Virus record (IMG/VR): IMGVR_UViG_3300013830_000006
Coordinates: 1 to 64,000 of that record
Strand: one strand, 5' to 3'
Source of the DNA: a virus
Taxonomy: Duplodnaviria > Caudoviricetes
DNA: 64,000 bases
This document shows, piece after piece, positions 3,167 to 64,000 of the stretch (the first letter of the stretch is position 1; each line of letters begins with the position of its first letter). The notes below the pieces were generated by a model. That model saw only the letters and a list, made by a program, of their open reading frames with translations. It ran no database searches and was not told the origin of the DNA. Position numbers and translations under genes: made by a program.

Positions 3167-4453
3167 TTAAACTCCTCCTAATAAGGATAGCATTGTAACA
3201 GTACTTTTGTTAAGATCTTCAAAAGTATGATGATAACAATCAGGTTTAACAAAAGATGTCTGATCTTTATCAAAGTTATCATCAGTTACAAAGATATTTT
3301 CATATGCCTGAATAGTTAATTCTTTGCGATCAGGTAATGTATCCTTATGATAATTCTTGACTATATGAGTAGCATCATTAAGAAGCAATCCTTCTGTAGT
3401 ATTCAAATCTACTGTAATGGATTTTCTCCATGAAGTTAATTTAGTTCTGGTAGTACATAAATTACTTATATGAAGATAGATAATAAAAGTATCTTTAGAT
3501 AAAGCAGTATTGAATTGTTCTAAGACATAAGTCTTTGGATCAATAGATGTATAACTTATATCACTGGAACAATCTGGTTCATTCTGAAGAAACTTCTTCA
3601 AGGCTAATGCCTTATTAAGAGGGAATCTGTCTAAGTTAATAGTTAACTGATATTCACTCTTAATCTCATATTCATCAGGAAAAATAAGCATACCACCTAT
3701 ACTGATGATAGGTGTCCATTCATATAAGGAATAGTTCTCGTTAATCAAACTGAAATTATACATGCCATCTGTACTATATGCATAAGTACAGGTGTCAAGA
3801 GTATGTTTTTCAGTATGAATAGATTCACAGTGATAATCACCTATAGAAGTAAAGTCTAACAGTTGTACTTCAGGAGTAGTATGTAAACCATTATGCCAAC
3901 ATAAATGAGAACCATCTAAAGCATAGAGTTTATTGTCTTCTTCTCTGTATACTGGTCTGCAGGCAAAACCATTGACTATAGGAATGCATCTTTTAAGATT
4001 AGGATAGTCTAAAGCTTTATCTGCTATAGAGATACTTAAATCTTTAAGCTTCCATCTGATTGCAAAAATATTTGCTCTTCCGGACAAGTAATCGCAATAT
4101 TGAATATCGAAAGTATTGATAGAAGACATTGTATCCCAGATCTTAATAGGATTAGTAGGATACATAGTACCTGGTACGTAACCCGGTAATTTAACCGTAT
4201 ATCCTAAGACTAAAGCATCTGTTAATTGTTTATCAAATGTCTTCCAATCGTTTACTTCCATAGGTTCATAATCAGTAACTAATTTACTATAATTCAAAGC
4301 TACTGATTTTTTTGAATCTGAATTGTATACCGATACGAATATTTTAACGTTTACACCTATTCGATTAGCTAATTCAGATGGAGATATTTCATCAGGATTA
4401 TAGACAGCGATATGATTGCGCTGTTCTATATAGATCTTGTTTACATTGTACAT
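3167..4453 (-). CDS. Conserved jumbo-phage protein (phiKZ gp177-like by synteny)
   Basis: 428-aa ORF with GAGG RBS; synteny only. Confidence 0.45.
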   Translation of the reverse strand: MYNVNKIYIEQRNHIAVYNPDEISPSELANRIGVNVKIFVSVYNSDSKKSVALNYSKLVTDYEPMEVNDWKTFDKQLTDALVLGYTVKLPGYVPGTMYPTNPIKIWDTMSSINTFDIQYCDYLSGRANIFAIRWKLKDLSISIADKALDYPNLKRCIPIVNGFACRPVYREEDNKLYALDGSHLCWHNGLHTTPEVQLLDFTSIGDYHCESIHTEKHTLDTCTYAYSTDGMYNFSLINENYSLYEWTPIISIGGMLIFPDEYEIKSEYQLTINLDRFPLNKALALKKFLQNEPDCSSDISYTSIDPKTYVLEQFNTALSKDTFIIYLHISNLCTTRTKLTSWRKSITVDLNTTEGLLLNDATHIVKNYHKDTLPDRKELTIQAYENIFVTDDNFDKDQTSFVKPDCYHHTFEDLNKSTVTMLSLLGGV

Positions 4454-4610
4454 TTAACTAACCTCTATGTAAACAGTTGATTTGGATTATTGATCATATC
4501 ATTGCCGACCCACGGCGAACATATTATTTAGAACAAAAAAATAAAAAGGCGTATACTCAGTTAAGAGTATACGTCTTAAATTGTGTTGCGTTAAAATACA
4601 CTAGTAAAGA

Positions 4611-5417
4611 TTAACCATCGTATTCGTCCCAATCGTCATACGTAGGATTAAAACGATAACCAGTTTTCATTGTGTACTCTGCTTTAGTTAATATTAAATG
4701 CGGATGATTCCAAATCAATTCTGTTAGATATTTTTGCATATCAGGAACTGAGTTCCCGCACGGAGATATCAGTCTCCCAGGTGCATAGTTAGGCATATCG
4801 TAATTTATCTGGCATACATCATAACACCTGTTAGTATCCTCATCAATAGTGACATATTCGTCACAGGAGAAGTGGTATTCAACATTGCCGTCACGTAACT
4901 CTATTCTAAACAGATACGCATTGGCAATGATCCAATTAAGTTTGCTTTCAGTTTTTTTATCGATTTTACTAGAACGATTACAGATAGCTTTTGGCGGTAT
5001 CTCATCTTCATCCTCGTCATGCTCACTGTAATGGTCGTAGCAATCAGCATAAATATATTTTAGTTCGCAAGGCTTATGAGATGTACTTACCCATTTGTTT
5101 TCATTAGAATCAAAATTTACATGTTTCGTGTAAATAGCTTTTTTCAATATAAGATCAGGATGGTTTTTGACTAGTTCAGATACGCAATCAGCCATGTCGT
5201 CGATCTGATCCTTGCATGCATCCAAATGCCGATTGCCTTCTGAGTTATTATGATTAATTTTAGTAGCAAAGCAAACTGTGTCAATCTGACGGTCATCAGT
5301 GATGTACGGATAACATTCGAAGTGATATTCTGTCATGTGATCCCACAAAACAATTTCGAACAAATACGCATGCTTAATAATCTGAACAAGCTTATTACCT
5401 GTTTTTTCATCGATCAT
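4611..5417 (-). CDS. Hypothetical protein made of two diverged ~125-aa repeats
   Basis: IDEKTGNKLVQIIKHAYLF..EYHFEC..PDLILKKAIYT and IDKKTESKLNWIIANAYLF..EYHFSC..PHLILTKAEYT. Confidence 0.75.
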   Translation of the reverse strand: MIDEKTGNKLVQIIKHAYLFEIVLWDHMTEYHFECYPYITDDRQIDTVCFATKINHNNSEGNRHLDACKDQIDDMADCVSELVKNHPDLILKKAIYTKHVNFDSNENKWVSTSHKPCELKYIYADCYDHYSEHDEDEDEIPPKAICNRSSKIDKKTESKLNWIIANAYLFRIELRDGNVEYHFSCDEYVTIDEDTNRCYDVCQINYDMPNYAPGRLISPCGNSVPDMQKYLTELIWNHPHLILTKAEYTMKTGYRFNPTYDDWDEYDG

Positions 5418-5532
5418 GATTAACTCCTTAATAGTTGCTTAATAAATTGACCATATGAATAATGCATGGAAATAATTAATTTGAAAAAAAAAATAAAACC
5501 CAGAGTCTTTCGGCTCCGGGTTCCATTTCTCA

Positions 5533-6099
5533 TTACTCTGCCAGAGCATCAGGATCAATTCCCGATGCCTCCAGCATTTTACGAGATCGAATCTCAATCT
5601 GAGCCATTGTTACTGGCCCGATGAGATCGAAAATCTCATCTTTTGACGGTACAGTTGTTGCACCGTCAATGACGAATTTTCCGGTTCTTTCCCAGACCTC
5701 CAGTCTGTTGATTCTGTCCAGGAGATCAGCTCCGGCAGCTGCTCCCAGTTCATTATACATCTTTTTAAGAGCCATCAAAAGGGAGTGTCCTTCTCCCATT
5801 TCGACGGCTTTTCCGTCGGCGGCGACCTCGTAACACATCGCCTTTTTAGAGCAATGTGCGTAGAAGCACGCCACCTGAACTTCCAGCATGGTCATGCCGG
5901 GTTTTAGCAGAATGTGCCAGTCTGCTGCTGGGTCATCAAGATGACCGATTTCATGGCAAATAATGCCAGGAAATTTCCTGACAAGATCCACCATGGAAGG
6001 ATCGATGACTATGACGCCACGGCTAGTATCGGCCACGGCGCCATATACGCCAATTGCTTCAACGACGACGGTATGATTAAACATAACAAATGAATCCAT
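5533..6099 (-). CDS. HExxH zinc metallopeptidase-like protein
   Basis: CHEIGH plus downstream EVAAD; GGAGG RBS; more GC-rich than background. Confidence 0.65.
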   Translation of the reverse strand: MDSFVMFNHTVVVEAIGVYGAVADTSRGVIVIDPSMVDLVRKFPGIICHEIGHLDDPAADWHILLKPGMTMLEVQVACFYAHCSKKAMCYEVAADGKAVEMGEGHSLLMALKKMYNELGAAAGADLLDRINRLEVWERTGKFVIDGATTVPSKDEIFDLIGPVTMAQIEIRSRKMLEASGIDPDALAE

Positions 6100-6202
6100 A
6101 TTGCCTCCTGATTTGTTGGTTAATCAAATGCGTTATATATAGATATTTTTTTTCAATTTACATTACGGTCACGATATAGAACTATCGCAGTTATTTAGGA
6201 GA

Positions 6203-9200
6203 ATGTATCAGATGGAAGATTTTGATAAGTTAATGTGGGGGGATTTCGACTATAAGAATAGAGATTTTCCTGAAGAAGCAACTGAGCGTATGAATGAACA
6301 GAGATTCGCTCGTGAATACACTGTTTACAAGATGGGTGATTTGGTTAATAAGATTATCACCTTGGATAAGAAGTTTGAATTACCGTTTAATTCAATTCTT
6401 CATGTGCTTGACAACGTATCTTATCCAGATAATTATCAGGATGCTCCAAGAGTAGATGAGAATGAATTTATTCAGAGAGAATCGGGTAAGAAGTTTATCT
6501 ATCACATCAGAGAATTAGATACTACTGGCCCTATTGTTTATCCAGATAAATTTATTTTAAGGTTTGCTGGATTACCTACTACTTTAATGAAGTTCAGACA
6601 GCAGCAAGGTTCTAATTTCCGTTACTTAAATAAGATAGAAGAATTTCCTACTAATAACTTATACTTAATAGTCGTTAATCACAATCCGTTATTCAGAATG
6701 AGGATGTATGGCAGACTTCCTTATTTCAGAATTATGCAGCAGATATTAGCTTCAGTGTTTAATACTTGTGATAAACTTAAGTATCAGCATAGACATCAGT
6801 TTATTTTACTGCCTTGGTCATCTGAAGTATATGACAAATCGTTGTTTATTCGTTCCCGTAAAGAGTTAACGCCTTCAACAGTAAGAAAGCCTAATAGTTT
6901 TCACTTTATTTTTATGATGCATCTGGTTAATTTCCTATGGGAAAAAGAAACAACTTCTATGTTAGAGAAGTTAGATGATGAAACGTTAGCTCAGATTAAC
7001 ATCATTTTAAAACATAATGATAAATATCTGATCTTTAATCTTAAAAAGATTAAAGATTTTAATGCTAAGAATATCATCTATTATAGATTCGTTAATCAGT
7101 TAAATCTCTTAGCACTTATGGGAAGTGAAGAGGCTGAGAAACATCAGGATACTATCAATCAGTTAATTGAAGAGAATAAATCTGAAACAGAAAATACTAC
7201 TTTTGAAATTAAATCACCTGAGGATAAAACTGAGTTAGATGAAGTACATCAGGATACAGTTATCAATAAGTTAGTATCAGTTATTAAGCCTAAGAAAGAA
7301 ATAGCTCCAGTACGTGCAGCTGCTGCAATTAAGACTTATGTACCTCAGCCTAAAGAAGTAATGAGAGAAGTCAAACCTTCAGGTGAACAGGTAGTAAGAA
7401 GAGTAGCTATTGTAAACAAGATAGCTAACGTATCTACTATTTCAACTAAAGAAACCAAAGATACTTATGCAGAAGAGTATGTAAAAGATCTTGACACCGA
7501 AACCAATGATTTTATTGATAATAACGAAGATCTTACTCCTGCTGCCAAACAGCATTTTAAGAAATTAGCTGCAAAATATAAAGAATGTAAGGTAGATGGT
7601 GTATACATCTCCAAACTGCTACTTGATCATTCTGATATAGGATTGGAGAAAGAAGTACTTAATGAGAAAGTAGTGGGATTTGCACCAGATAAATCTGCTT
7701 TGGAGAGTTCTACTGATACATTTGAGAAGAGTTATAGAGAAAAGACATTTAAGAAACATTTTGCTGGTGTGATTTCATCATTCCAGAACAAAGGTGTATT
7801 CTTAACTGATGTTAAACAGGAAGTAATAGCAGATCCTCTTAATAATTATACGTTGTATACCTGTTCTTATGAAGATATACATAGTAAGAAATCTACTATT
7901 AAGATTAAGATACCTAACATCGATAGCAATGATAGATTTATAGCTGATGGTAACCCTATGGTTATCAAGAAGCAACGTTGCGCATTGCCTATTATTAAGA
8001 TCAATGACCACGAAGTAGCGTTAGCTTCTAACTATAACAAAACCCGTGTAGTAAGGAACACTACTAAGGCGCATAGCTTTACTGGTTATGTAGAAAGCTT
8101 TGTAAATAATAAGGATAAATCCACTGCAAGTATCATATTCGGTAGCCTCGATATCAACGAGCCTATCTCTTATGAATACTGCATGATGGCTAAACGCTTT
8201 AATGAAATTACTTTTACCAATAAAGATAAGTTTGTATTGGTATTTGACTACTATCATAGATTCAATCATGTTAAAGCTTCACAGGTTAGTCCAGAGAAAG
8301 TAGAAAAGTTAGAAAATAATTATGGTACTTTCTTTGGTTATAATACCAATGATATATTCTTTATTGATAATACTAATCAGGTATTTGCGGTTAATAAAAA
8401 GAATTTCAGTGAAGATGTAGATTTCCCTTATACATCGTTATTGGATCTTCTTAAATTATCTTTAAGAGATGGAATAGAAGTTAAAAAAGCTCTCAGTGAA
8501 TTTCTTACTATTAAGATACTTAATGCTGAATTACCTGTAATGATTATGTTAGCTTACAGGTATGGTCTCAGAAGAATGTTAGACTATATCGGTATAGAGT
8601 ACTACATTACTGAGAACAGATCTAAGATTATTGTAAGTGAAAGTACTCCTGCTACTGAGTCATTCGGAGTTAATTCAGACAGAGTGGCTGGTTCTGATGA
8701 GCTTGAAATACTTTATGGTAAAGATTGGATTAAACCTAGAAATGATTCTAAGCCCAATATTGTTATAACCAATAGAAGAGCTGAACAGGATGAAACTGAT
8801 TATGAGATTCTTCAGAATGATAGAAATAAAAATGATCTGACGTATAGTTTACCTGGTACAGAAGATCTTAAAGTATTCGAAGAAGATGGTTCTACCCGTA
8901 TTCTGTGGCAGCATCTTAATGCTGGAATGTGTATTGCATTAATAGCTGATCCTAATCCAGAATATCTGAATACTGATGATGAAGCAACAGAATATGCACG
9001 TTCTATTATAAAGAAATACGATAGAAATGGTGATCTGTTTCTTATGACTGATGATACGTGGGCTAAAGAAATTTGCCAGAAATATCATTTAGACAGACAT
9101 CCTGATATTGTGTTTAGAGGAGGAACAGTTTACTGTTCCTGTTCTGGCGGTACTATTCTTTTGTATGAAAAATTATTTGAGGCCTTTCCTGAAGCTTTTT

Positions 9201-17965: not shown

Positions 17966-19693
17966 TTATACTCCATTAGCTAACCTGATGGCTATTACTT
18001 TCCATTCAGTAACTAAACCGCCTGTAAAGTACACAGGCATAGCGTTTAATAAAACATCAACCTGTTTATACATAAATTGCTCATAATCGACAGCTCTGAA
18101 TTTAGATACCATAACAGTAAAACCTATTCGATCTTTAAGAAAGATTTCTGAAGTTTCACCTCTGGATTTTATCGCAGCTACTGTCACATTACTTAATAAA
18201 AGGTTGACAGGTTCGTTTTTATTACCATATGGACCAAAGTTCCATAAGAATAATTGAAAACGTACATCATACAAATTTGGAATAGTTATCTCAGCATCAA
18301 TGTATCTATCAAATGTGATAGTATCATTAGGCTGCCTTACTGCCTCAATAAACTTTTTGGTAAATGCATCAAGATTTTCATGCTTTAATGCTAATCCAGC
18401 AGCTACCCGATGCCCACCAAATTGTATTAATGAATCTTTACATCTATCTAATGCTCCAAATAAATCTATACCATCAGGTGCTCTTCCGGAACCGTGAATA
18501 ATATCATCACCAGTAAGTATCAGTGTTGGTACATGATATCGTTCTACTAGTCTGGAAGCCACTATTCCCACTACTCCTGCATGAAATTCTGGTGAGTATA
18601 CAACTATAGCAGGGGGTACGTTCTCCCTTATCTCATCAGTGATCTGATCATATATCTGAGCTTCGATTATTTTACGATTACTGTTAAGCGATCTTAATTC
18701 ATTTGCATAAATACGAGACTTGGCTTTACCAGGAGAATCATCATCAACACAGAGGAGTACGTCCATACCTTTCTGTACATTGTTCATTCTTCCAGCAGCA
18801 TTTAATTTAGGATTAACCATGAACGAGATGAATTGCGATGAGATTTCATGCTCAACTCTCATACCGCACATAACCATTAGTGCTAATAATCCATTATGCT
18901 GAGTGTTATTTAAGCACAATAAACCATAATCCAGTTGAACACGTATCTCTTTGTTGATATCTATCATATCGCTTTCAATAGAAAGTGCAATGAAGCTGCT
19001 TAGTATCTTTTTATAGTATTCAAACTTATCTGATTTATACTTTCTGATGATTTCAAGACCAACCTGTGCCCCAACAAAACAACCAGATACCATGTACTCA
19101 GCGTCTTTTTCATTTAAATATAATTTAGGATCAAGGAGTACGTCAGCATTAGGTTTGTCTTTCTGAGGAAGATGATGATCAGTCACTACGATAGTATAAC
19201 CTAACTCTTTAAGCTGCTTGATTTCTTCTATTTCAGCTATACCAGTATCAACTGTTATGATTAAACTTTTCTCAGGAAGCATTTCGAGAGCTTTGGCTAC
19301 ATTCAACCCATAGCCTAGTTCTCTATTGGGAATAAACCATCTTACATTTTTATCCAGTTCCTGTAAAGTAAGCACCAATGATGCAGTTGCGGTCATACCA
19401 TCGACATCATAATCTCCCCATACTAATATAGGTCGTTCATCTTTGATAAATGGTTCAATAGCTGCTACTGCCTTATCTAATTCTTTTTTATATTTATTAG
19501 AAGGATTAGTCAATAACAGATTTTTATAATCTGTTGTAGTGATGATATCGAGATTAGCTCGTCTCATTATCAATGTGTCTAATGACAATACATCTTCAGA
19601 GAGATCTTCGTATCTTGTCATCAGAGTTCTTACCGAATTTTTAGATCTACTTTTAAGTAATGGCTTCGGTCGCCATGCTTCTTTAACAATCAT
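17966..19693 (-). CDS. recJ: RecJ-like ssDNA exonuclease (DHH family)
   Basis: GDYDVDG, ITVDTG, TDHH, PKLNAAGR, GSGR, FGGHRVAAG. Confidence 0.93.
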   Translation of the reverse strand: MIVKEAWRPKPLLKSRSKNSVRTLMTRYEDLSEDVLSLDTLIMRRANLDIITTTDYKNLLLTNPSNKYKKELDKAVAAIEPFIKDERPILVWGDYDVDGMTATASLVLTLQELDKNVRWFIPNRELGYGLNVAKALEMLPEKSLIITVDTGIAEIEEIKQLKELGYTIVVTDHHLPQKDKPNADVLLDPKLYLNEKDAEYMVSGCFVGAQVGLEIIRKYKSDKFEYYKKILSSFIALSIESDMIDINKEIRVQLDYGLLCLNNTQHNGLLALMVMCGMRVEHEISSQFISFMVNPKLNAAGRMNNVQKGMDVLLCVDDDSPGKAKSRIYANELRSLNSNRKIIEAQIYDQITDEIRENVPPAIVVYSPEFHAGVVGIVASRLVERYHVPTLILTGDDIIHGSGRAPDGIDLFGALDRCKDSLIQFGGHRVAAGLALKHENLDAFTKKFIEAVRQPNDTITFDRYIDAEITIPNLYDVRFQLFLWNFGPYGNKNEPVNLLLSNVTVAAIKSRGETSEIFLKDRIGFTVMVSKFRAVDYEQFMYKQVDVLLNAMPVYFTGGLVTEWKVIAIRLANGV

Positions 19694-19800: not shown

Positions 19801-21438
19801 TTAAATGTGATCAACGTAAGTTGCATTTTCAAATGCTTTTTGAACGAAGTTATACCTTGGACTGGATAATATTGTATCTAATTTAAAATAATCTGGAATT
19901 TCTTTTTCTATGGTAGCTGCAATGATTGTATGCATATCAACCCCTTTTATTACAGTGATACCAAGGTCAGTATAATAATCAGGCTCTATTTCGTCAGAAC
20001 ATAAATCCCAGATGATAATCTTAGGTATAGTGTACCCATATTTAGTAAACGCTTTCTCTACATTGACATAATTTCTTTTTTGTGAAGAAAAAGATTCATC
20101 ATTAAGAACTTGCTTAGGATTGTAATCTGTGATGATTACAAACTCCGTAGGAATATCTTCGGGTTTGACATTATGAGAATACGCATTACTAGCAATTATT
20201 TCAAGTGCGGTATAAACTTCTTTGATATCAAACGGTTTTGATGTTGAAACGGCATTTAGTTTTGCTTTAATCGTTTTGCAATCATCAATACTTCTGAATT
20301 CAATTCCTTTTCTGGCCTTAATAAGTATCTTACCATTATAATAAGAACTTGCATTATTTTCAGATGAACGAAGAATAATAGTTCTTGCTATATCTATAGT
20401 TCGATAGTTAAGCTTATTAACGATAATATCTTTGGAACAATCAGCACATACTAATCTGTTAGTACTATAACATCCGGCATAATGATTCCATATATTATCA
20501 AGCTTTCTTTTAATCTTGTTATTAACTGCATCAAACCTGAGAATAGTAGAACGCTTAACTGCATCAATTGCATTGCACACTCTGTCAGGATATCGTATCG
20601 AGACTCGTCTATAGTTGGTGATACGCTGTTTATCATGCTTATACAGAGCTTTCTGATATTTTTTATAAGCAAGTGCTGGCATTTTTTTATAGTTAATGTT
20701 TTTGTATTTTTTAGTAGTAAGATGATGCTCAGCTATGTTGATGCGATTTCTTAAAGCTACACACATTTTGCGATAGGATTCACAGGTAAATGCTTTGGGA
20801 AGATTAGGAAATGCATTATGATCAGAGATTCTGATTCTGTGATTAAATATCGCAATAAGCCATTTTGCTTTTGCTCTGGTTTCCTTACTGCTGGCATTGA
20901 TACTGGGTAACCATTTACCGAGCATGGATATCTCAGTATTTGTATCAACATAAAACATATCAGAATCAAGCTGCTTTAACAATACCCAAATCAGTATATC
21001 TAACTGTATATTATCGTGAAGATAATAGCCAATATTGATTAAATCATCCCATCTTCCATAGTTAGGTATAGCTTTGAATAAAATCTCCCAGGCATTGCCT
21101 TCGTTATCATACGCACTGTTTATTCCTGTATCCCGAAAATGAAGATAGGCAAGCCGATTAAGTACATATGAAAATAACGTAATGAATGCTTCCCTACAAC
21201 CTAAATTCTCACCTCTATCACGAAGATGAAATAATAAAACGACAGTATCTGTTATATCGATATTGAGGCACTCAGTGATTAATGGATAAATTTGTCCTAC
21301 GGTAAAATGATTGGGAGTTTTAGAAAGTGTGTTAAACTCTTCAAACAGTTTAATGAAGCACGGATGACGTTTCGAAACATTAGTGTTGACAGTGCTAATA
21401 ACGTCTTTATTCTCGTTGTTAATTGAAATCTCATTCAT
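19801..21438 (-). CDS. DUF2828-type Ro60/TROVE-like protein with degenerate vWA domain (start MNEISIN)
   Basis: LRDRG..GCRE, YGRWDDL, GKWLPS, YRK, INYKKMPA, IIIWDL; MIDAS DxSGS reads DCSKD; GGTGG RBS. Confidence 0.75.
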   Translation of the reverse strand: MNEISINNENKDVISTVNTNVSKRHPCFIKLFEEFNTLSKTPNHFTVGQIYPLITECLNIDITDTVVLLFHLRDRGENLGCREAFITLFSYVLNRLAYLHFRDTGINSAYDNEGNAWEILFKAIPNYGRWDDLINIGYYLHDNIQLDILIWVLLKQLDSDMFYVDTNTEISMLGKWLPSINASSKETRAKAKWLIAIFNHRIRISDHNAFPNLPKAFTCESYRKMCVALRNRINIAEHHLTTKKYKNINYKKMPALAYKKYQKALYKHDKQRITNYRRVSIRYPDRVCNAIDAVKRSTILRFDAVNNKIKRKLDNIWNHYAGCYSTNRLVCADCSKDIIVNKLNYRTIDIARTIILRSSENNASSYYNGKILIKARKGIEFRSIDDCKTIKAKLNAVSTSKPFDIKEVYTALEIIASNAYSHNVKPEDIPTEFVIITDYNPKQVLNDESFSSQKRNYVNVEKAFTKYGYTIPKIIIWDLCSDEIEPDYYTDLGITVIKGVDMHTIIAATIEKEIPDYFKLDTILSSPRYNFVQKAFENATYVDHI

Positions 21439-21508
21439 AATAAAACCACCTGTGAAATAAGTAAAAGAAACTTCTCTGTGCAAATACACAGAGAAGCGAT
21501 TGTAAAAC

Positions 21509-21690
21509 AAGGCACATTATTAATTTTGATTTTCTGTATCATAGGTGGAATCTATTGATACAGTGGTGGAACTAATAAAACACCGGGCCTTATGCGCATT
21601 CATCAATTGGCTATGATTTTCCAGCGAACCAAAGAATCCTGCAATCAAGGTTGTTGCCCAAGGAGGTGAACTGCTGCTGATATGTGCCTT
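21509..21690 (-). ncRNA. Structured RNA unit C of tandem array
   Basis: 5' AAGGCACAT-ATCAGCAGCAG and 3' ATGTGCCTT-GTTTT; internal hairpin at 21534-21563. Confidence 0.55.
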
Positions 21691-21726
21691 TATGTTTACA
21701 ATTTAAAAAGCGTACAATATATAAAC

Positions 21727-21925
21727 AAGATAGTCTCCTGTATTTAACTCAATACAGAACCTGATGTCAGAAGAAGTTTGAGTTAAATGTGCAATCTGCA
21801 AACATATTCTCCTGAGTGTTTTATGTCAACAAAACACCTGAAACATAAAGGATTTTTTCGCTTGCGATTACAGACTTGGGAGCTTGAATACCTTTGGAGT
21901 TGCTGGTAGCTGCTGTAACTATCTT
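21727..21925 (-). ncRNA. Structured RNA unit B of tandem array
   Basis: 5' AAGATAGT-TACAGCAGC and 3' GGAG-ACTATCTT-GTTT; internal hairpin at 21741-21789. Confidence 0.6.
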
Positions 21926-21988
21926 TAAAATATAGATCATACGCTTATTAAATTGTGCTAAAAGAAAATCACACGTGATACATAAAAC

Positions 21989-22195
21989 AAGATAGTCTCC
22001 TTTATTCAGACACATTAAAGCGGGTAAACACATGTGTCTGAACATATAATCTATGAGAGGAATGTTTAATGATTCAACTACCTTACCAGCAACTAAAAAA
22101 CAATAAAAAATTGCTGATAAATGTTAAAAACTCATGATTATATAAATTCAGGAGATTGTGATGCAACATAGGAGGAGAGCTGCTGTAACTATCTT
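21989..22195 (-). ncRNA. Structured RNA unit A of tandem array
   Basis: 5' AAGATAGT-TACAGCAGC-TCTCCT and 3' AGGAG-ACTATCTT-GTTTT; 11-bp hairpin at 22005-22042 and a long hairpin at 22044-22142. Confidence 0.6.
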
Positions 22196-22241
22196 TAAAT
22201 TGTGTTATTTCTTCTAGCATATAATATATTCAGGATTATAA

Positions 22242-22727
22242 TTAATTACTTTGAATGTATTTGATTACATCATCAGAATTTATATCCAAGACATCAGAAT
22301 CTTTAATCATATTGAAATAATCTGTTATTTTCTTTATCCATTGCTGATGAGTTATTTGAGAATCGATACAGTCAGTAGCTGTGAGAATATCGCTTAAGTA
22401 AGAAACAGCATCATAAGTATCACTTAATCTGTCGTTTATTTCAGATACTTTGGTGTATAATAATGATTGAAATAATGCCTGATGCATAGTACTACTGGTT
22501 AAGCATAATTTTTGTTTAACATTTATAAAGAAAGGATTGTTGTGAACGAGATCGTATAGTTCTTCACCCAGTGTTTGACAGGCTTTAATGAAAGGTAAAA
22601 AATCACTGCGGACTACAGTACGTTCAGGATATATCCAAAAACGTTTATCAACTACTATTTTGGGATCAGATTGTAATGCAGTCCATAACAGCAAACGAAT
22701 AATAGTTATGTATGTGTTCACAGTCAT
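22242..22727 (-). CDS. Hypothetical protein
   Basis: 161-aa ORF with GGAG RBS. Confidence 0.55.
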   Translation of the reverse strand: MTVNTYITIIRLLLWTALQSDPKIVVDKRFWIYPERTVVRSDFLPFIKACQTLGEELYDLVHNNPFFINVKQKLCLTSSTMHQALFQSLLYTKVSEINDRLSDTYDAVSYLSDILTATDCIDSQITHQQWIKKITDYFNMIKDSDVLDINSDDVIKYIQSN

Positions 22728-60524: not shown

Positions 60525-60974
60525 TTACTCCAAACTTGCTGTATCTGTAGTATTACTAAACTTTAATTTTATTTCATTAGTCTTTTTATCTGTAGTTATA
60601 TCACCGGTAATGAAAGCCGATTCAAAACCTGTAGATGACATAGGTTCTATAGCTATTTTAAAAGCTATAGTGTATAATCCATTCTTTACATCTTTTTGAT
60701 AATCAGATACTGAAAATTCACAATCAAAATTATAATCCCTAAATTTATTAGACAAAAAATTTTTTACAGTACTTTCTAACGTACTGGCAAATAAATCTCT
60801 GTCGCTATCATACTTGGAAGATAAGTATCTGAAACTATATAATCGATCTTCCCAGAGATCAGAAGTTCCGCCTGGATTCATGATAAAAAATTTAACGAAA
60901 TGCATAACCTGATCTCTAACATCAGTCAGATATCCAGCTGATGAAGATAAAGTAGGTGTTATACTTATGGCCAT
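60525..60974 (-). CDS. Conserved jumbo-phage protein (phiKZ gp62-like by synteny)
   Basis: N-terminal PTLSS..GY pattern; synteny. Confidence 0.45.
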   Translation of the reverse strand: MAISITPTLSSSAGYLTDVRDQVMHFVKFFIMNPGGTSDLWEDRLYSFRYLSSKYDSDRDLFASTLESTVKNFLSNKFRDYNFDCEFSVSDYQKDVKNGLYTIAFKIAIEPMSSTGFESAFITGDITTDKKTNEIKLKFSNTTDTASLE

Positions 60975-61081
60975 AGATATTATCCTTGATTTTACTGTAC
61001 TATCTTATAATCAGCTGTAAACAAAAAATAAAAGCAGCAGTCTTTCGACTGCTGCCCATTATTACTACAACCTATCAGAAA

Positions 61082-63225: not shown

Positions 63226-64000
63226 TTTACCTCCTCATAATAATCACTATCTTTGTCATACTCCATATAGTTCTCAAGCATGACATACATTTGATTGAGC
63301 AATGTTACACTATCACTCAATCCTGGATTTCTCACATTGAATAAGAATTGCGACGGATGCGCAGCAGATAATGCTTCCGCTAACTCATCTTCAAATATGA
63401 AAAAGCCATATAACTCGTCACCATCGAAATGTCGGGATAGATTGTTTATTCAATATTCTAATATTGAACAAACTACCCCCCGCCAAACCGTACGTACGAC
63501 TTTCGCCGTATACGGCTTTCACCGAGTATTTCTACTCGCTAGAATCCTTCTCTCCACTGTTTATTATCACAGTTTCACAGATACTATGATTCCTCCGATT
63601 TCTCTCAAAAGAGAGACGTCCCTTACGAAATTTCGATCTTCAGTATATGAGTTCTTTTAGGTACTGCATATCCTTCAGAGCGCATCCAGATTTTTAATCC
63701 GTACTCATTTGGTAACATAGACTTATTTTAATCAAATGAGCTAGCCCCTGATGACTAATCCAGTTCGTGTTCCTTACCATAAGAACTTCCGCATCTGAGG
63801 TCTTTCCACAAAATACATCGCTATATTCTGCTGTCCTCTTCAAATGCTTTGCATTTTTCAGCAAATCGATCGAACTCAATAAGGCATACCTATGTTTGCC
63901 GGTGTAACTATACTTGCATTAATCTCAAGAGTTTCATCTGCTGGATTAGTCTTGAAATTTCTAACATATAGCAACATCATTGATCCATAATTTAACGTAG
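63222..64000 (-). CDS. Non-virion RNAP beta-prime-like catalytic subunit (phiKZ gp55-like), 5'-partial; exons 64000-63890 and 63430-63222
   Basis: Spliced translation TLNYGSMMLLYVRNFKTNPADETLEINASIVTPANI-D-FDGDELYGFFIFEDE...EEVK* restores NxDFDGD. Confidence 0.92.
63431..63889 (-). mobile_element. ORF-less group II intron (459 nt)
   Basis: 5' GTATG; domain V GAAAGCCGTATACGGCGAAAGTCGTACGTACGGTTTG; domain VI ending CTATCCCGAC; EBS1 CTATGTT complementary to exon end AACATAG. Confidence 0.93.

What the first reader, a model, noticed from the sequence alone, without database searches (positions are those of the whole stretch)
19801..22230. Tandem array of three ~200-nt structured RNAs ahead of a Ro60/TROVE-like gene: candidate phage ribonucleoprotein system
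Seen: downstream of a promoter-like motif at 22221-22230 lie three units (22195-21989, 21925-21727, 21690-21509). Each opens with an 8-9 nt arm followed by CAGCAGC and closes with the exact complement of that arm plus GTTT(T). Units A and B use AAGATAGT/ACTATCTT; unit C uses AAGGCACAT/ATGTGCCTT, a fully compensated change. In A and B pairing resumes (CTCC/GGAG), leaving the CAGCAG motif bulged. The interiors differ in sequence but contain long hairpins. The next gene is DUF2828-like. Knowledge: Ro60/Rsr proteins bind a bulged terminal stem of Y RNAs, often encoded next to the gene. Inference: these are processed Y-like RNAs with a constant protein handle and variable cargo, perhaps decoys or tethers; recJ lies just downstream.
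Basis: partly seen in the sequence, partly recalled or inferred. Interest (0 to 1): 0.85.

Follow-up and report, generated by a model that had tools for sequence, protein, structure and literature searches.

The report
Phage Ro60-like protein's partner RNAs
A cattle-rumen jumbo phage carries three ~200-nt folded RNA genes sharing one conserved "handle", just ahead of a gene whose protein is predicted to fold like the RNA-surveillance protein Ro60; the same RNA-protein pairing recurs in hundreds of phages but is in no RNA catalogue or paper I could search.

Summary
On the minus strand, three tandem units (22195-21989, 21925-21727, 21690-21509) each have an 8-9 bp terminal helix (AAG...CUU), a (U)A/UCAGCAGC motif just after the 5' arm, and G-U-U-U after the 3' arm. 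A 12-bp terminator follows, then a DUF2828+DUF7788 gene.

- The protein's predicted structure matches only Ro60/TROVE proteins over its full length (Z 9.8-11.5).
- The units are kept in four related loci, including one whose protein is 49% identical. Changes there are compensatory or G-U.
- The same handle, AAG-arm-(U)ACAGCA(A/G)...arm'-CUUG, flanks DUF2828 genes across 160 distant loci. With the motif, there are 200 hits on the gene strand and 1 on the other.
- An RNA-only search returned DUF2828 on the same strand in 70 of 70 loci that held the gene.
- Some relatives carry YrlA-type permuted tRNA cargo.

The window's units are the long extreme (182-207 nt against a median of 66). They are not tRNA-like and match no Rfam family.

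The handle also resembles Dictyostelium Class I RNAs; that link is untested.

This scan has already noted the same pairing on many other genomes. I reached it independently before reading those notes.

The parts
22196..22241 (-). Conserved non-coding stretch upstream of unit A. It is the presumed promoter or 5' flank of the RNA transcription unit.
   Evidence: It is 97.8% identical to L093, whose flanking coding DNA is 70-76% identical. No sigma-70-type match exceeds chance, so the promoter role is inferred.
21989..22195 (-). Unit A, a 207-nt structured RNA. P1 pairs AAGAUAGU (22195-22188) with ACUAUCUU (21996-21989). The motif UACAGCAGC lies at 22187-22179. P2 is CUCC(U)/GGAG, and the cargo is two long hairpins.
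   Evidence: It is 91% identical in L093, against 49% for the protein. All one-sided changes keep pairs (A-U to G-U, U-G to U-A).
21959..21979 (-). Short hairpin ATCACGTGTGAT plus a T-run between units A and B. It may be a weak terminator or a processing spacer.
   Evidence: Read from the sequence. The hairpin and T-run themselves are invariant in all four relatives; the A-B spacer as a whole is 87% identical in L093. Its function is inferred.
21727..21925 (-). Unit B, a 199-nt structured RNA with the same P1 arms and motif as unit A (TACAGCAGC at 21917-21909) but different cargo.
   Evidence: The interior is only 56% identical in L093 while the handle and several blocks are kept. Six pairs show compensatory changes.
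21509..21690 (-). Unit C, a 182-nt structured RNA. P1 pairs AAGGCACAU (21690-21682) with AUGUGCCUU (21517-21509), and the motif is AUCAGCAGCAG.
   Evidence: The window and L093 copies fold into the same four-element architecture. An 8-bp helix under the invariant loop AUUCCAC differs at 7 of 8 pairs yet stays paired. P1 shows G-U variants in L093 and in L090/L092.
21460..21497 (-). Intrinsic-terminator-like hairpin (12 bp) plus T-run. It closes the RNA array ahead of the gene's ribosome-binding site.
   Evidence: one such site found against 0.4 expected. It is conserved in all four relatives.
19801..21435 (-). DUF2828 + DUF7788 protein of 544 aa. It has a helical-repeat domain plus a vWA domain, is Ro60/TROVE-like by predicted fold, and is the presumed partner of the RNAs.
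   Evidence: Pfam PF11443 (1.7e-13) and PF25043 (1.4e-8). PHROG 850 'RNA-binding protein'. Fold matches. The family profile's best PDB sequence hit is the phiLo TROVE protein, E 0.3, collinear. The MIDAS motif is degenerate in this clade.
17966..19693 (-). RecJ-like DHH/DHHA1 exonuclease gene downstream. It is a neighbour in this clade only.
   Evidence: Pfam DHH 2e-20 and DHHA1 2e-11. PHROG 2484. It is not a recurrent neighbour among 91 other DUF2828 loci.

Best explanation
The three units are genes for stable non-coding RNAs of a widespread, uncatalogued class that travels with DUF2828 genes. This class is a divergent branch of the Ro60/Y-RNA ribonucleoprotein.

Each RNA brings its two ends together in an 8-9 bp helix (AAG...CUU). 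The helix presents a single-stranded (U)ACAGCA(G/A) motif on its 5' side and a short G-U-rich 3' tail. This 'handle' is the constant part.

The Ro60-like DUF2828 protein encoded directly downstream most likely binds the handle. Ro60 likewise reads a 5'-strand motif beside the terminal stem of Y RNAs.

The interior of each RNA is a cargo domain that sets what the particle engages. In other phages the cargo is a hairpin, a whole tRNA or a permuted tRNA mimic. In this phage it is three different 150-180-nt multi-helix domains.

The array is probably transcribed as one unit, from the conserved stretch upstream of unit A to the strong terminator after unit C, and then cut into three RNAs.

Shown here: the sequence anatomy, conservation and covariation, strand-specific genomic linkage to DUF2828, and the Ro60-like predicted fold.

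Inferred: transcription, processing, protein binding, and the downstream role. That role could be tethering the protein to a nuclease or another factor, or acting as a decoy for RNA-targeting host defences.
For: Anatomy and folding.

Within the clade:
- The units are kept in L090, L091, L092 and L093.
- Unit A is 91% identical in L093, against 49% protein identity and 70-76% nucleotide identity in flanking genes.
- Compensatory and G-U changes occur in helices of B and C and in P1.

Across the family:
- The handle motif gives 280 hits on the gene strand and 8 on the other in 1.3 Mb of 160 DUF2828 loci.
- A stem-only scan gives 372 against 106; of those, 200 against 1 carry CAGC. After CAGC, A follows at 93% and the next position is A at 82%; neither position was required by the scan.
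- From sequence-only seeds, 39% have at least 5 contiguous pairs, against 4.7% when arms are swapped. There are 71 distinct arms.
- Single non-Watson-Crick pairs are G-U 32 times and A-C 6 times.
- 152 of 179 units lie within 500 nt of the gene.

Reverse test: an RNA-only pattern in IMG/VR gave 116 loci. 70 held a DUF2828 ORF, all 70 on the same strand, at a median distance of 184 nt.

Control genomes: T4, T5 and Bxz1 have tRNA arrays but no DUF2828 and no model hits. KVP40 and a Felix O1-type phage have DUF2828 and weak model hits (best E 0.26 and 0.07); only the Felix O1-type hits lie beside the gene.

Link to Y RNAs:
- Units beside DUF2828 in L100 and in mycobacteriophage Winky have the T-arm, closed acceptor stem and D-arm order of YrlA. 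They score 29.1 and 21.7 bits on RF02553.
- The protein fold matches Ro60.
- There is a precedent of two Y-like RNAs upstream of a phage Ro60 gene (PMC12135203).
Against: - The TROVE Pfam model does not hit this genome. The sequence-profile link to TROVE is not significant on its own (E 0.3).
- Fold matches have high rmsd (7-8 A) and TM 0.3-0.5, so a closed Ro60-like ring is not demonstrated.
- The window's RNAs miss every Rfam model. They lack the tRNA-like module and the GNCGAA-type motif of known bacterial Y RNAs.
- The metal-binding MIDAS motif, conserved in the DUF2828 family, is degenerate in this clade. This protein may therefore work differently from its relatives.
- In many phages the units sit inside tRNA operons, so part of the linkage could reflect a shared operon rather than direct binding.
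Confidence: 0.7

Rival explanations
1. The handle is a processing or stability module of RNAs made from phage tRNA-type operons. It would be a leader-trailer helix read by a host or phage RNase, or one that shields the ends from exonucleases. It would work without DUF2828, and the protein would merely share the operon.
For: Units are interspersed among same-strand tRNA genes in many loci. Five units wrap a complete tRNA directly between the two arms (L165). No binding data exist.
Against: The window has no tRNA within 20 kb of the units, yet they abut the DUF2828 gene. The RNA-only search returned DUF2828 on the same strand in 70 of 70 loci that held it, at a median of 184 nt. T4, T5 and Bxz1 have tRNA arrays without DUF2828 and give no model hits. 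A conserved single-stranded 8-nt motif beside a covarying helix looks like a protein-recognition site, not like an RNase III or RNase P substrate.
Confidence: 0.15
2. The units are cis-acting leader elements of the DUF2828 mRNA. They would be autoregulatory binding sites or an attenuator, and the hairpin at 21497-21470 would be a regulated terminator. They would not be free-standing RNAs.
For: The units lie directly upstream on the same strand. A terminator sits between them and the start codon. 112 of 179 units in other loci are upstream of the gene.
Against: 42 of 179 units lie downstream of the gene, for example all three in Winky. Arrays reach 7-8 units with different cargoes, including whole tRNAs. 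Three large, different, individually conserved cargo domains are hard to explain as a leader.
Confidence: 0.07
3. The units are DNA-level elements with terminal inverted repeats, either miniature mobile elements or recombination sites, and they were duplicated in tandem.
For: They have 8-9 bp terminal inverted repeats. Units A and B share identical arms.
Against: The strand bias is extreme, 200 to 1 with the motif. Non-Watson-Crick pairs are G-U on the gene strand far more often than A-C, 32 to 6. Internal helices covary. I saw no target-site duplications or transposase. Only three copies exist in 95.6 kb.
Confidence: 0.02

Closest known systems
Ro60 (Rsr/TROVE2) with Y RNAs: bacterial and mycobacteriophage YrlA/YrlB (Rfam RF02553; Chen et al. 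2014, PMC4201824) and Thermus phage phiLo Ro60 with Yrl1/Yrl2 (PMC12135203; PDB 9KOP, 9L5Y)
   Same: The protein has a helical-repeat plus vWA architecture, and its best structural matches are exactly these proteins. The RNA genes sit next to the protein gene, in tandem, as in phiLo. The RNA 5' and 3' ends pair in a terminal stem with a conserved 5'-strand motif beside it and a modular second domain. In relatives that domain is the same permuted tRNA mimic as in YrlA.
   Different: The protein belongs to Pfam DUF2828/DUF7788, not TROVE. The 5'-strand motif is (U)ACAGCA(A/G) instead of GNCGAAN0-1G or GGUCCGA. The RNAs fall far below the YrlA gathering score, and the window's own units give no hit at all. 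The window's cargo is not tRNA-like and is about 3 times longer than usual. MIDAS is degenerate in this clade.
Class I RNAs of dictyostelid social amoebae (Rfam RF01414; Aspegren 2004; Kjellin et al. 2021, PMC7919456)
   Same: Both start with AAG, have a short terminal stem whose sequence varies but whose pairing is kept, and place ...UACAGCAA directly after the 5' arm. Both end C-U-(U)-G-U, have a median length of about 60-66 nt, and occur as clustered genes with variable interiors. Out of 4227 Rfam families, RF01414 recurs among the top weak hits on phage units from two unrelated phages.
   Different: Scores are 14-19 bits against a gathering score of 41.5. The window's long units give no hit. 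Class I RNAs are eukaryotic, are driven by the DUSE promoter element and are reported as unique to Dictyostelia. Their shown direct binder is the RRM protein Rnp1A. I could not test whether Dictyostelium has a DUF2828 protein.
'Ro-like RNA binding protein' of cluster L mycobacteriophages and PHROG 850 'RNA-binding protein' (Felix O1-type, Listeria, Staphylococcus, Campylobacter and Vibrio phages)
   Same: They belong to the same protein family. Winky gp55 and Salmonella phage Mushroom gp127 are DUF2828+DUF7788. 711 cultured-phage records hold a homologue. Both examples carry handle RNAs beside the gene.
   Different: Those annotations name only the protein. In the records I looked at the flanking RNAs are unannotated. 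Their units are short, and the terminal bases differ (AAG...CUGG in Mushroom, UGG...CCAG in Winky).

Membership tests
Ro60/TROVE protein family (Pfam PF05731) | Match to the TROVE sequence model | tested here: not met
   Pfam reports only DUF2828 and DUF7788. PF05731 finds nothing in the 95.6-kb record at E<=0.01, while it does find the Deinococcus and Bacteroides controls.
Ro60/TROVE protein family (Pfam PF05731) | Helical-repeat (HEAT) domain followed by a vWA domain, forming the Ro60 fold | tested here: met
   The top four VIA-align hits are all Ro60/TROVE, with Z 11.5, 10.9, 10.0 and 9.8 over 356-415 residues spanning model residues 25-531. vWA-only hits have Z<=7.7. The Foldseek top 10 are all Ro60/TROVE. 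The high rmsd (7-8 A) leaves ring closure unproven.
Ro60/TROVE protein family (Pfam PF05731) | Intact MIDAS metal site (DxSxS...T...D) in the vWA domain | tested here: not met
   The DUF2828 family has D-x-S-G-S-M...T...D. The window protein has D-C-S-K-D and K in place of T. Clade members P0004 and P0005 have C-C-N-K-N and R-C-T-S-S.
Ro60/TROVE protein family (Pfam PF05731) | Binds Y RNA through the terminal stem and its 5'-strand motif | not testable with these tools
   This needs EMSA, CLIP or a solved complex.
Y RNA / YrlA (Rfam RF00019, RF02553) | Covariance-model score at or above gathering | tested here: not met
   No Y RNA or YrlA hit at E<=10 in 21300-22400. Related units in L100 and Winky score 29.1 and 21.7 bits against a gathering score of 69.
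Y RNA / YrlA (Rfam RF00019, RF02553) | 5' and 3' ends paired in a terminal stem, and gene adjacent to the Ro60-type gene | tested here: met
   The units lie 74-760 nt upstream of the gene on the same strand.
Y RNA / YrlA (Rfam RF00019, RF02553) | Ro60-binding 5'-strand motif GNCGAAN0-1G (bacteria) or GGUCCGA (vertebrates) | tested here: not met
   The motif here is UACAGCAGC or AUCAGCAGC. The known motifs are as given in PMC4201824.
Y RNA / YrlA (Rfam RF00019, RF02553) | tRNA-like module (T arm, acceptor-like stem, D arm) | tested here: not met
   ARAGORN and Rfam find nothing tRNA-like in the three units. The module is present in relatives' units.
DUF2828-associated 'handle' RNAs (uncatalogued class defined here) | AAG...CUU(G) terminal helix of at least 6 bp, with arm sequence free to covary | tested here: met
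   The three units have 8-9 bp helices. The class shows 71 distinct arms, and 39% of seeds are paired against 4.7% in the arm-swapped control. Pair counts are, though on sequences that were selected for pairing.
DUF2828-associated 'handle' RNAs (uncatalogued class defined here) | (U)ACAGCA(A/G) within 4 nt after the 5' arm | tested here: met
   Units A and B have U-ACAGCAG and unit C has AU-CAGCAG.
DUF2828-associated 'handle' RNAs (uncatalogued class defined here) | Same strand as a DUF2828 gene and within about 500 nt of it | tested here: met
   Unit C ends 74 nt before the ATG. For the class, 152 of 179 units are within 500 nt, and 70 of 70 are on the same strand in the reverse test.
DUF2828-associated 'handle' RNAs (uncatalogued class defined here) | Typical length 50-130 nt | tested here: not met
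   The window's units are 182-207 nt. The class median is 66, the 90th percentile is 132 and the maximum is 214. The short-unit model R1 cannot span them.
Dictyostelid Class I RNA (Rfam RF01414) | Covariance-model score at or above gathering (41.5 bits) | tested here: not met
   No hit in the window. Short phage units score 18.3, 17.0, 18.9 and 14.3 bits.
Dictyostelid Class I RNA (Rfam RF01414) | AAG start, covarying short stem, ...UACAGCAA motif next to the 5' arm, C-U-G-U end | tested here: inconclusive
   The phage class logo has A-AAG, a covarying stem, (U)ACAGCAA and CUUG-U. The Class I features are as described in PMC7919456. This is a resemblance of signatures, not a scored homology.
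Dictyostelid Class I RNA (Rfam RF01414) | DUSE promoter element about 60 nt upstream; occurrence in Dictyostelia | not tested
   These are a eukaryotic promoter feature and a host range, neither of which applies to a phage.

The most novel reading that the evidence does not exclude
The DUF2828-associated handle RNAs of phages and the long-unexplained Class I RNAs of dictyostelid amoebae are one RNA class. DUF2828-type Ro60-like proteins would then be the missing dedicated partner of that class. If so, a protein with no assigned function would gain a ligand in viruses and eukaryotes alike. Class I RNAs, known since 2004 and reported as unique to Dictyostelia, would become a branch of the Ro60/Y-RNA world. 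A side reading for this window: its three unusually long, non-tRNA cargo domains, together with a MIDAS-degenerate protein, mark a re-purposed version of the particle in nucleus-forming jumbo phages.
Probability: 0.2. Interest if true: 0.85.

Novelty: new variant of a known kind. Interest (0 to 1): 0.72.

Why it matters
Ro60/Y-RNA particles are a classic but narrowly sampled RNA-surveillance system. The evidence here points to a second, much larger viral branch.

- It uses a different protein family (DUF2828/DUF7788) and a different RNA recognition signature.
- It has freely exchangeable RNA cargo.
- It is present in hundreds of cultured phages, including workhorses such as Felix O1-type, Listeria, Staphylococcus, Campylobacter and cluster L mycobacteriophages. 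In the records I inspected the RNAs are unannotated.

This gives DUF2828 a testable ligand. It gives phage tRNA-region 'gaps' a content. It also gives experimenters tractable systems for asking what a viral Ro-like particle does, whether RNA decay, tRNA protection or decoys against RNA-targeting defences.

The window adds the extreme case: long, non-tRNA cargo in a nucleus-forming rumen jumbo phage. One RNA there, unit A, is conserved far better than the surrounding genes.

If the resemblance to Dictyostelium Class I RNAs reflects common descent or a shared partner, a 20-year-old open question becomes directly testable.

Tried and rejected
- I therefore have no flanks for the Logan/ENA homologues and no read or expression evidence. 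Read laying was not usable without runs.
- blastn of the region against cultured phages found nothing. The single-protein scan of IMG/VR also found nothing.
- The exact 17-mer scan of IMG/VR gave 7 loci, about the chance number. Two of them (L005, L008) are short 66-nt units with the same arm, and none has DUF2828 in its flank.
- Model R1, built from 75 short units, cannot bridge the 200-nt interiors. It gives only E~1 partial hits in the window.
- Whole-genome hits of R1 in control phages are weak, with E between 0.07 and 0.8. I treat that test as suggestive only.
- The tally of neighbouring genes (91 downstream ORFs) showed no recurrent protein partner. RtcB appeared in 2 of 91 and Metallophos in 2 of 91. 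I therefore dropped the idea that RecJ is part of the system in general.
- I first read the Felix O1-type tRNAs as lying on the opposite strand, following the annotation table. ARAGORN shows they are on the same strand, so I withdrew the argument built on it.
- My attempts to test whether Dictyostelium encodes DUF2828, or what the pull-down protein DDB_G0281243 is, all failed. No paper links the two. The stored proteome supplement is cut and holds no motif match. Avesson 2011 and the 2020 Ro60 review are not held. The protein atlas showed only viral clusters. The 'longer' homologue search returned unnamed metagenomic proteins.
- Pair counts on alignment A8 rest on units that were selected for pairing. 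I rely instead on the seed test.
Full report
WHAT IS THERE

The window is part of a 95.6-kb fragment of a jumbo phage, estimated about 36% complete. Earlier notes of this scan call it a cattle-rumen, chimallin-encoding phage.

On the minus strand, between a 161-aa ORF (22727-22242) and a 544-aa gene (21435-19801), lie about 800 bases with no credible ORF.

- Units A (22195-21989) and B (21925-21727) open with AAGATAGT, then TACAGCAGC. They close with GGAG-ACTATCTT followed by GTTT.
- Unit C (21690-21509) opens with AAGGCACAT, then ATCAGCAGCAG. It closes with ATGTGCCTT followed by GTTTT.

RNAfold closes each terminal helix. The folds are more stable than shuffles, with z = -6.3, -3.1 and -2.6. 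These are the only full-signature units in the whole record.

A 12-bp hairpin with a T-run (21497-21470) separates unit C from the gene's AGGTGG ribosome-binding site and its ATG at 21435. No Rfam family matches the region, even at E<=10.

THE PROTEIN

The gene product matches Pfam DUF2828 and DUF7788 and PHROG 850 'RNA-binding protein'. It does not match TROVE.

An AlphaFold2 model built on a 64-sequence alignment has a mean pLDDT of 81. It shows a helical-repeat domain (about residues 25-320) followed by a vWA domain.

- In Foldseek the ten best PDB matches are all Ro60/TROVE proteins.
- In VIA-align the top four are Thermus phage phiLo Ro60 (9kop Z 11.5; 9l5y Z 9.8), Deinococcus Rsr (2nvo Z 10.9) and human Ro60 (9nen Z 10.0). 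Each is aligned over 356-415 residues spanning nearly the whole model. vWA-only hits stop at Z 7.7.
- The rmsd is high (7-8 A). I therefore claim a shared architecture, not a proven closed ring.
- A profile of the family finds the phiLo TROVE protein as its best PDB sequence match. The match is collinear and includes the R-D-x-R-x-x-L-G-x-R, R-x-D-D and D-x-S-G-S-M blocks, but E is only 0.3.

Conserved basic residues line the helical domain. In this phage's clade the MIDAS metal site, which the family otherwise keeps, is degenerate.

CLOSE RELATIVES

Four metagenome contigs carry the same locus. Their proteins are 95%, 93%, 86% and 49% identical to the window's. All four keep units A, B and C in order.

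Against the 49% relative (L093), identities are:

| Region | Identity to L093 |
|---|---|
| Flanking coding DNA | 70-76% |
| Stretch upstream of unit A | 97.8% |
| Unit A | 91% |
| Unit B | 56% |
| Unit C | 65% |

The handles and several internal blocks of B and C are intact.

- Every change inside unit A's helices keeps a pair.
- Units B and C show 6 and 7 pairs with changes on both sides.
- The window and L093 copies of unit C fold independently into the same four-element architecture. An 8-bp helix beneath the invariant loop AUUCCAC differs at 7 of its 8 pairs.
- P1 of unit C has an A-to-G change in L093 and a C-to-U change in L090/L092. Both create G-U pairs on this strand only.

THE CLASS

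DUF2828 genes are common in phages. IMG/VR holds at least 464 and 711 cultured-phage records have one. In 160 loci with about 25% identical proteins I looked for the handle.

- The pattern AAG + arm, CAGC within 4 nt, then reverse-complement arm + CTT + G occurs 280 times on the gene's strand and 8 times on the other.
- A scan that asks only for an AAG...CTTG helix of at least 8 bp gives 372 against 106. Of these, 200 against 1 have CAGC just after the 5' arm. After CAGC, A follows at 93% and the next position is A at 82%; the scan required neither. A precedes AAG in 77%.
- The class signature is therefore A-AAG-arm-(U)ACAGCAA...arm'-CUUG-(U). The median length is 66 nt.
- Starting from sequence-only seeds, 39% have at least 5 contiguous pairs. 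The figure is 4.7% when arms are swapped among units. There are 71 different arms.
- Single non-Watson-Crick pairs are G-U 32 times and A-C 6 times, as expected for RNA on this strand.
- 90 of 144 non-identical loci have at least one strict unit, and some have up to 7. 152 of 179 units lie within 500 nt of the gene.

In the reverse direction, an RNA-only pattern for one arm type retrieved 116 IMG/VR loci. Of these, 70 held a DUF2828 ORF in the often truncated flank. All 70 were on the same strand, at a median distance of 184 nt.

T4, T5 and Bxz1 have tRNA arrays but no DUF2828, and they gave no hit to a model built from 75 short units. KVP40 and a Felix O1-type phage have the gene and gave weak hits.

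CARGO

The handle encloses very different interiors.

- Most units hold a plain hairpin (L095).
- Five hold a complete tRNA (L165).
- About half of the 81-140-nt units carry a T-loop motif.
- Units in L100 and in mycobacteriophage Winky have a T arm, then a closed 7-bp acceptor stem, then a U8-A9-D arm. This is the circularly permuted tRNA mimic that defines YrlA. They score 29.1 and 21.7 bits on Rfam YrlA, against a gathering score of 69.
- The window's units are the long extreme, at 182-207 nt. ARAGORN and Rfam detect no tRNA-like part in them.

About half of the loci have a tRNA within 1.5 kb, and all 512 tRNAs are on the gene's strand. No protein gene is a recurrent neighbour, so the RecJ-like gene downstream in the window is a feature of this clade only.

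HOW IT MOST LIKELY WORKS

Ro60 binds Y RNAs through the terminal stem and mainly through a conserved motif on its 5' strand. In bacteria, the rest of the Y RNA tethers Ro60 to PNPase or mimics tRNA (PMC4201824). A phage Ro60 with two Y-like RNAs encoded upstream has been characterised (PMC12135203).

The anatomy here is the same in kind. There is a covarying terminal helix, an invariant single-stranded motif on the 5' side, interchangeable cargo, and a Ro60-shaped protein encoded alongside.

I therefore read units A-C as partner RNAs of the DUF2828 protein. The handle would be the binding site and the cargo would set what the particle engages. The array is probably one transcript that ends at the strong terminator and is cut at the unit boundaries.

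None of transcription, processing, binding or biological role is shown. I put this reading at 0.70.

Rivals:
- The handle is a processing or stability module of tRNA-type operons that works without the protein (0.15).
- The units are cis-regulatory leaders of the gene (0.07).
- The units are DNA-level inverted-repeat elements (0.02).

COMPARISON WITH THE KNOWN

The system works like Ro60/Y RNA, but it fails the membership tests of both the TROVE protein family and the Rfam Y RNA and YrlA families. It has a different Pfam family, a different recognition motif, and sub-threshold or absent model scores.

Cluster L mycobacteriophage 'Ro-like RNA binding proteins' and PHROG 850 are this same protein family. 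So the Ro-likeness of the protein is already reflected in annotations. The RNAs are unannotated in the records I inspected. They are absent from Rfam 15. They are also absent from the papers I could search.

A SECOND RESEMBLANCE

Among 4227 Rfam families, the Dictyostelium Class I RNA model recurs as a weak top hit on short phage units from two unrelated phages, at 18.3, 17.0, 18.9 and 14.3 bits against a gathering score of 41.5.

Class I RNAs are described as about 60-nt RNAs with these features (PMC7919456):
- they start with AAG;
- they have a short stem of variable sequence but conserved pairing;
- they carry an 11-nt motif, CCUUACAGCAA, beside the 5' arm;
- they end in CUGU;
- they are clustered in the genome;
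- their function is unknown;
- they are reported as unique to Dictyostelia.

The phage class logo matches point for point. One of four proteins pulled down with a Class I RNA, DDB_G0281243, has no known function.

I could not determine whether it, or any dictyostelid protein, is a DUF2828 member. I keep this as the novel case at probability 0.2.

EARLIER NOTES OF THIS SCAN

After completing the analysis above, I found that the scan has noted the same DUF2828-plus-handle-RNA pairing on many other genomes, including the Class I resemblance. One such report was later checked. What was seen stood, and its bold reading was given low odds. This is one reason I keep the novel case modest. My tests were run independently on this window's data.

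LIMITS

- Covariation within the clade rests on effectively two lineages.
- The class-wide statistics use my own pattern scans, not a curated structural alignment.
- The control-genome test is small and its scores are weak.

Noticed in passing
window 19801-21435 (-), protein residues 332-336, 405, 436-438: The DUF2828 family keeps a canonical vWA MIDAS motif (D-x-S-G-S-M ... T ... D). The window's clade has D-C-S-K-D and K in place of T, and its more distant members have C-C-N-K-N or R-C-T-S-S. Loss of the metal site coincides with the unusually long RNA cargo.
   Followed up: partly
window 60940-61009 (-): An intergenic stretch, not inside any ORF of 80 aa or more, resembles a decayed or divergent handle unit: AAGAUA-G-UACAGUAA ... 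UAUCUU-C. It scores 13.1 bits on model R1, E about 2. It may be a fourth, degenerate unit about 39 kb from the array.
   Followed up: partly
P0103 and P0105: Metagenomic proteins fuse DUF2828/DUF7788 to an RtcB RNA ligase domain (675 aa) or to a RecQ helicase (1148 aa). RtcB was also the downstream neighbour in 2 of 91 loci. This hints at a link to RNA repair, as in the bacterial rsr-yrlBA-rtcBA operon.
   Followed up: no
L130:2173-2267, L166:3052-3145, L165:397-503, L141:3227-3346, L094:112-247: Five handle units wrap a complete, normally ordered tRNA directly between the two arms, for example AAGGCACCA-ACAGCGA-[tRNA-Met]-GTGCCTTG. L094, from a rumen sample, uses the same arm as window units A and B (AAGATAGT/ACTATCTT + GTTT).
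   Followed up: partly
L170 (Salmonella phage Mushroom, NC_041923.1) 4540-7340: The annotated-feature table gives the tRNA genes the strand opposite to the DUF2828 gene. ARAGORN places them on the same strand. The table's strand for these tRNA rows appears to be wrong after the locus was turned.
   Followed up: yes
L171 (Mycobacterium phage Winky, KC661276.1) 3884-4252: The unannotated 370-bp gap after gp55, the 'Ro-like RNA binding protein', holds three handle units. The middle one is a YrlA-type permuted tRNA mimic. In this GC-rich phage the terminal bases are UGG...CCAG instead of AAG...CUUG, while CUA/CCU-ACAGCAA is kept.
   Followed up: partly
window 22104-22120 (-), inside unit A: Unit A's long internal hairpin contains a second AUCAGCAAU, paired with GUUGCUGGU. 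It is a copy of the handle motif sequence buried in a stem, and it is invariant in all relatives.
   Followed up: no
window 63431-63520 (-): Rfam group II intron domain match, 66.7 bits. It is unrelated to this finding.
   Followed up: no
L005:7477-7542, L008 (minus strand, about 2943): Two other IMG/VR contigs carry 66-nt units with exactly the window's A/B arm and CAGCAGC motif (tttggt-AAGATAGTTACAGCAGC ... ACTATCTT). Their fetched flanks hold no DUF2828 ORF.
   Followed up: partly
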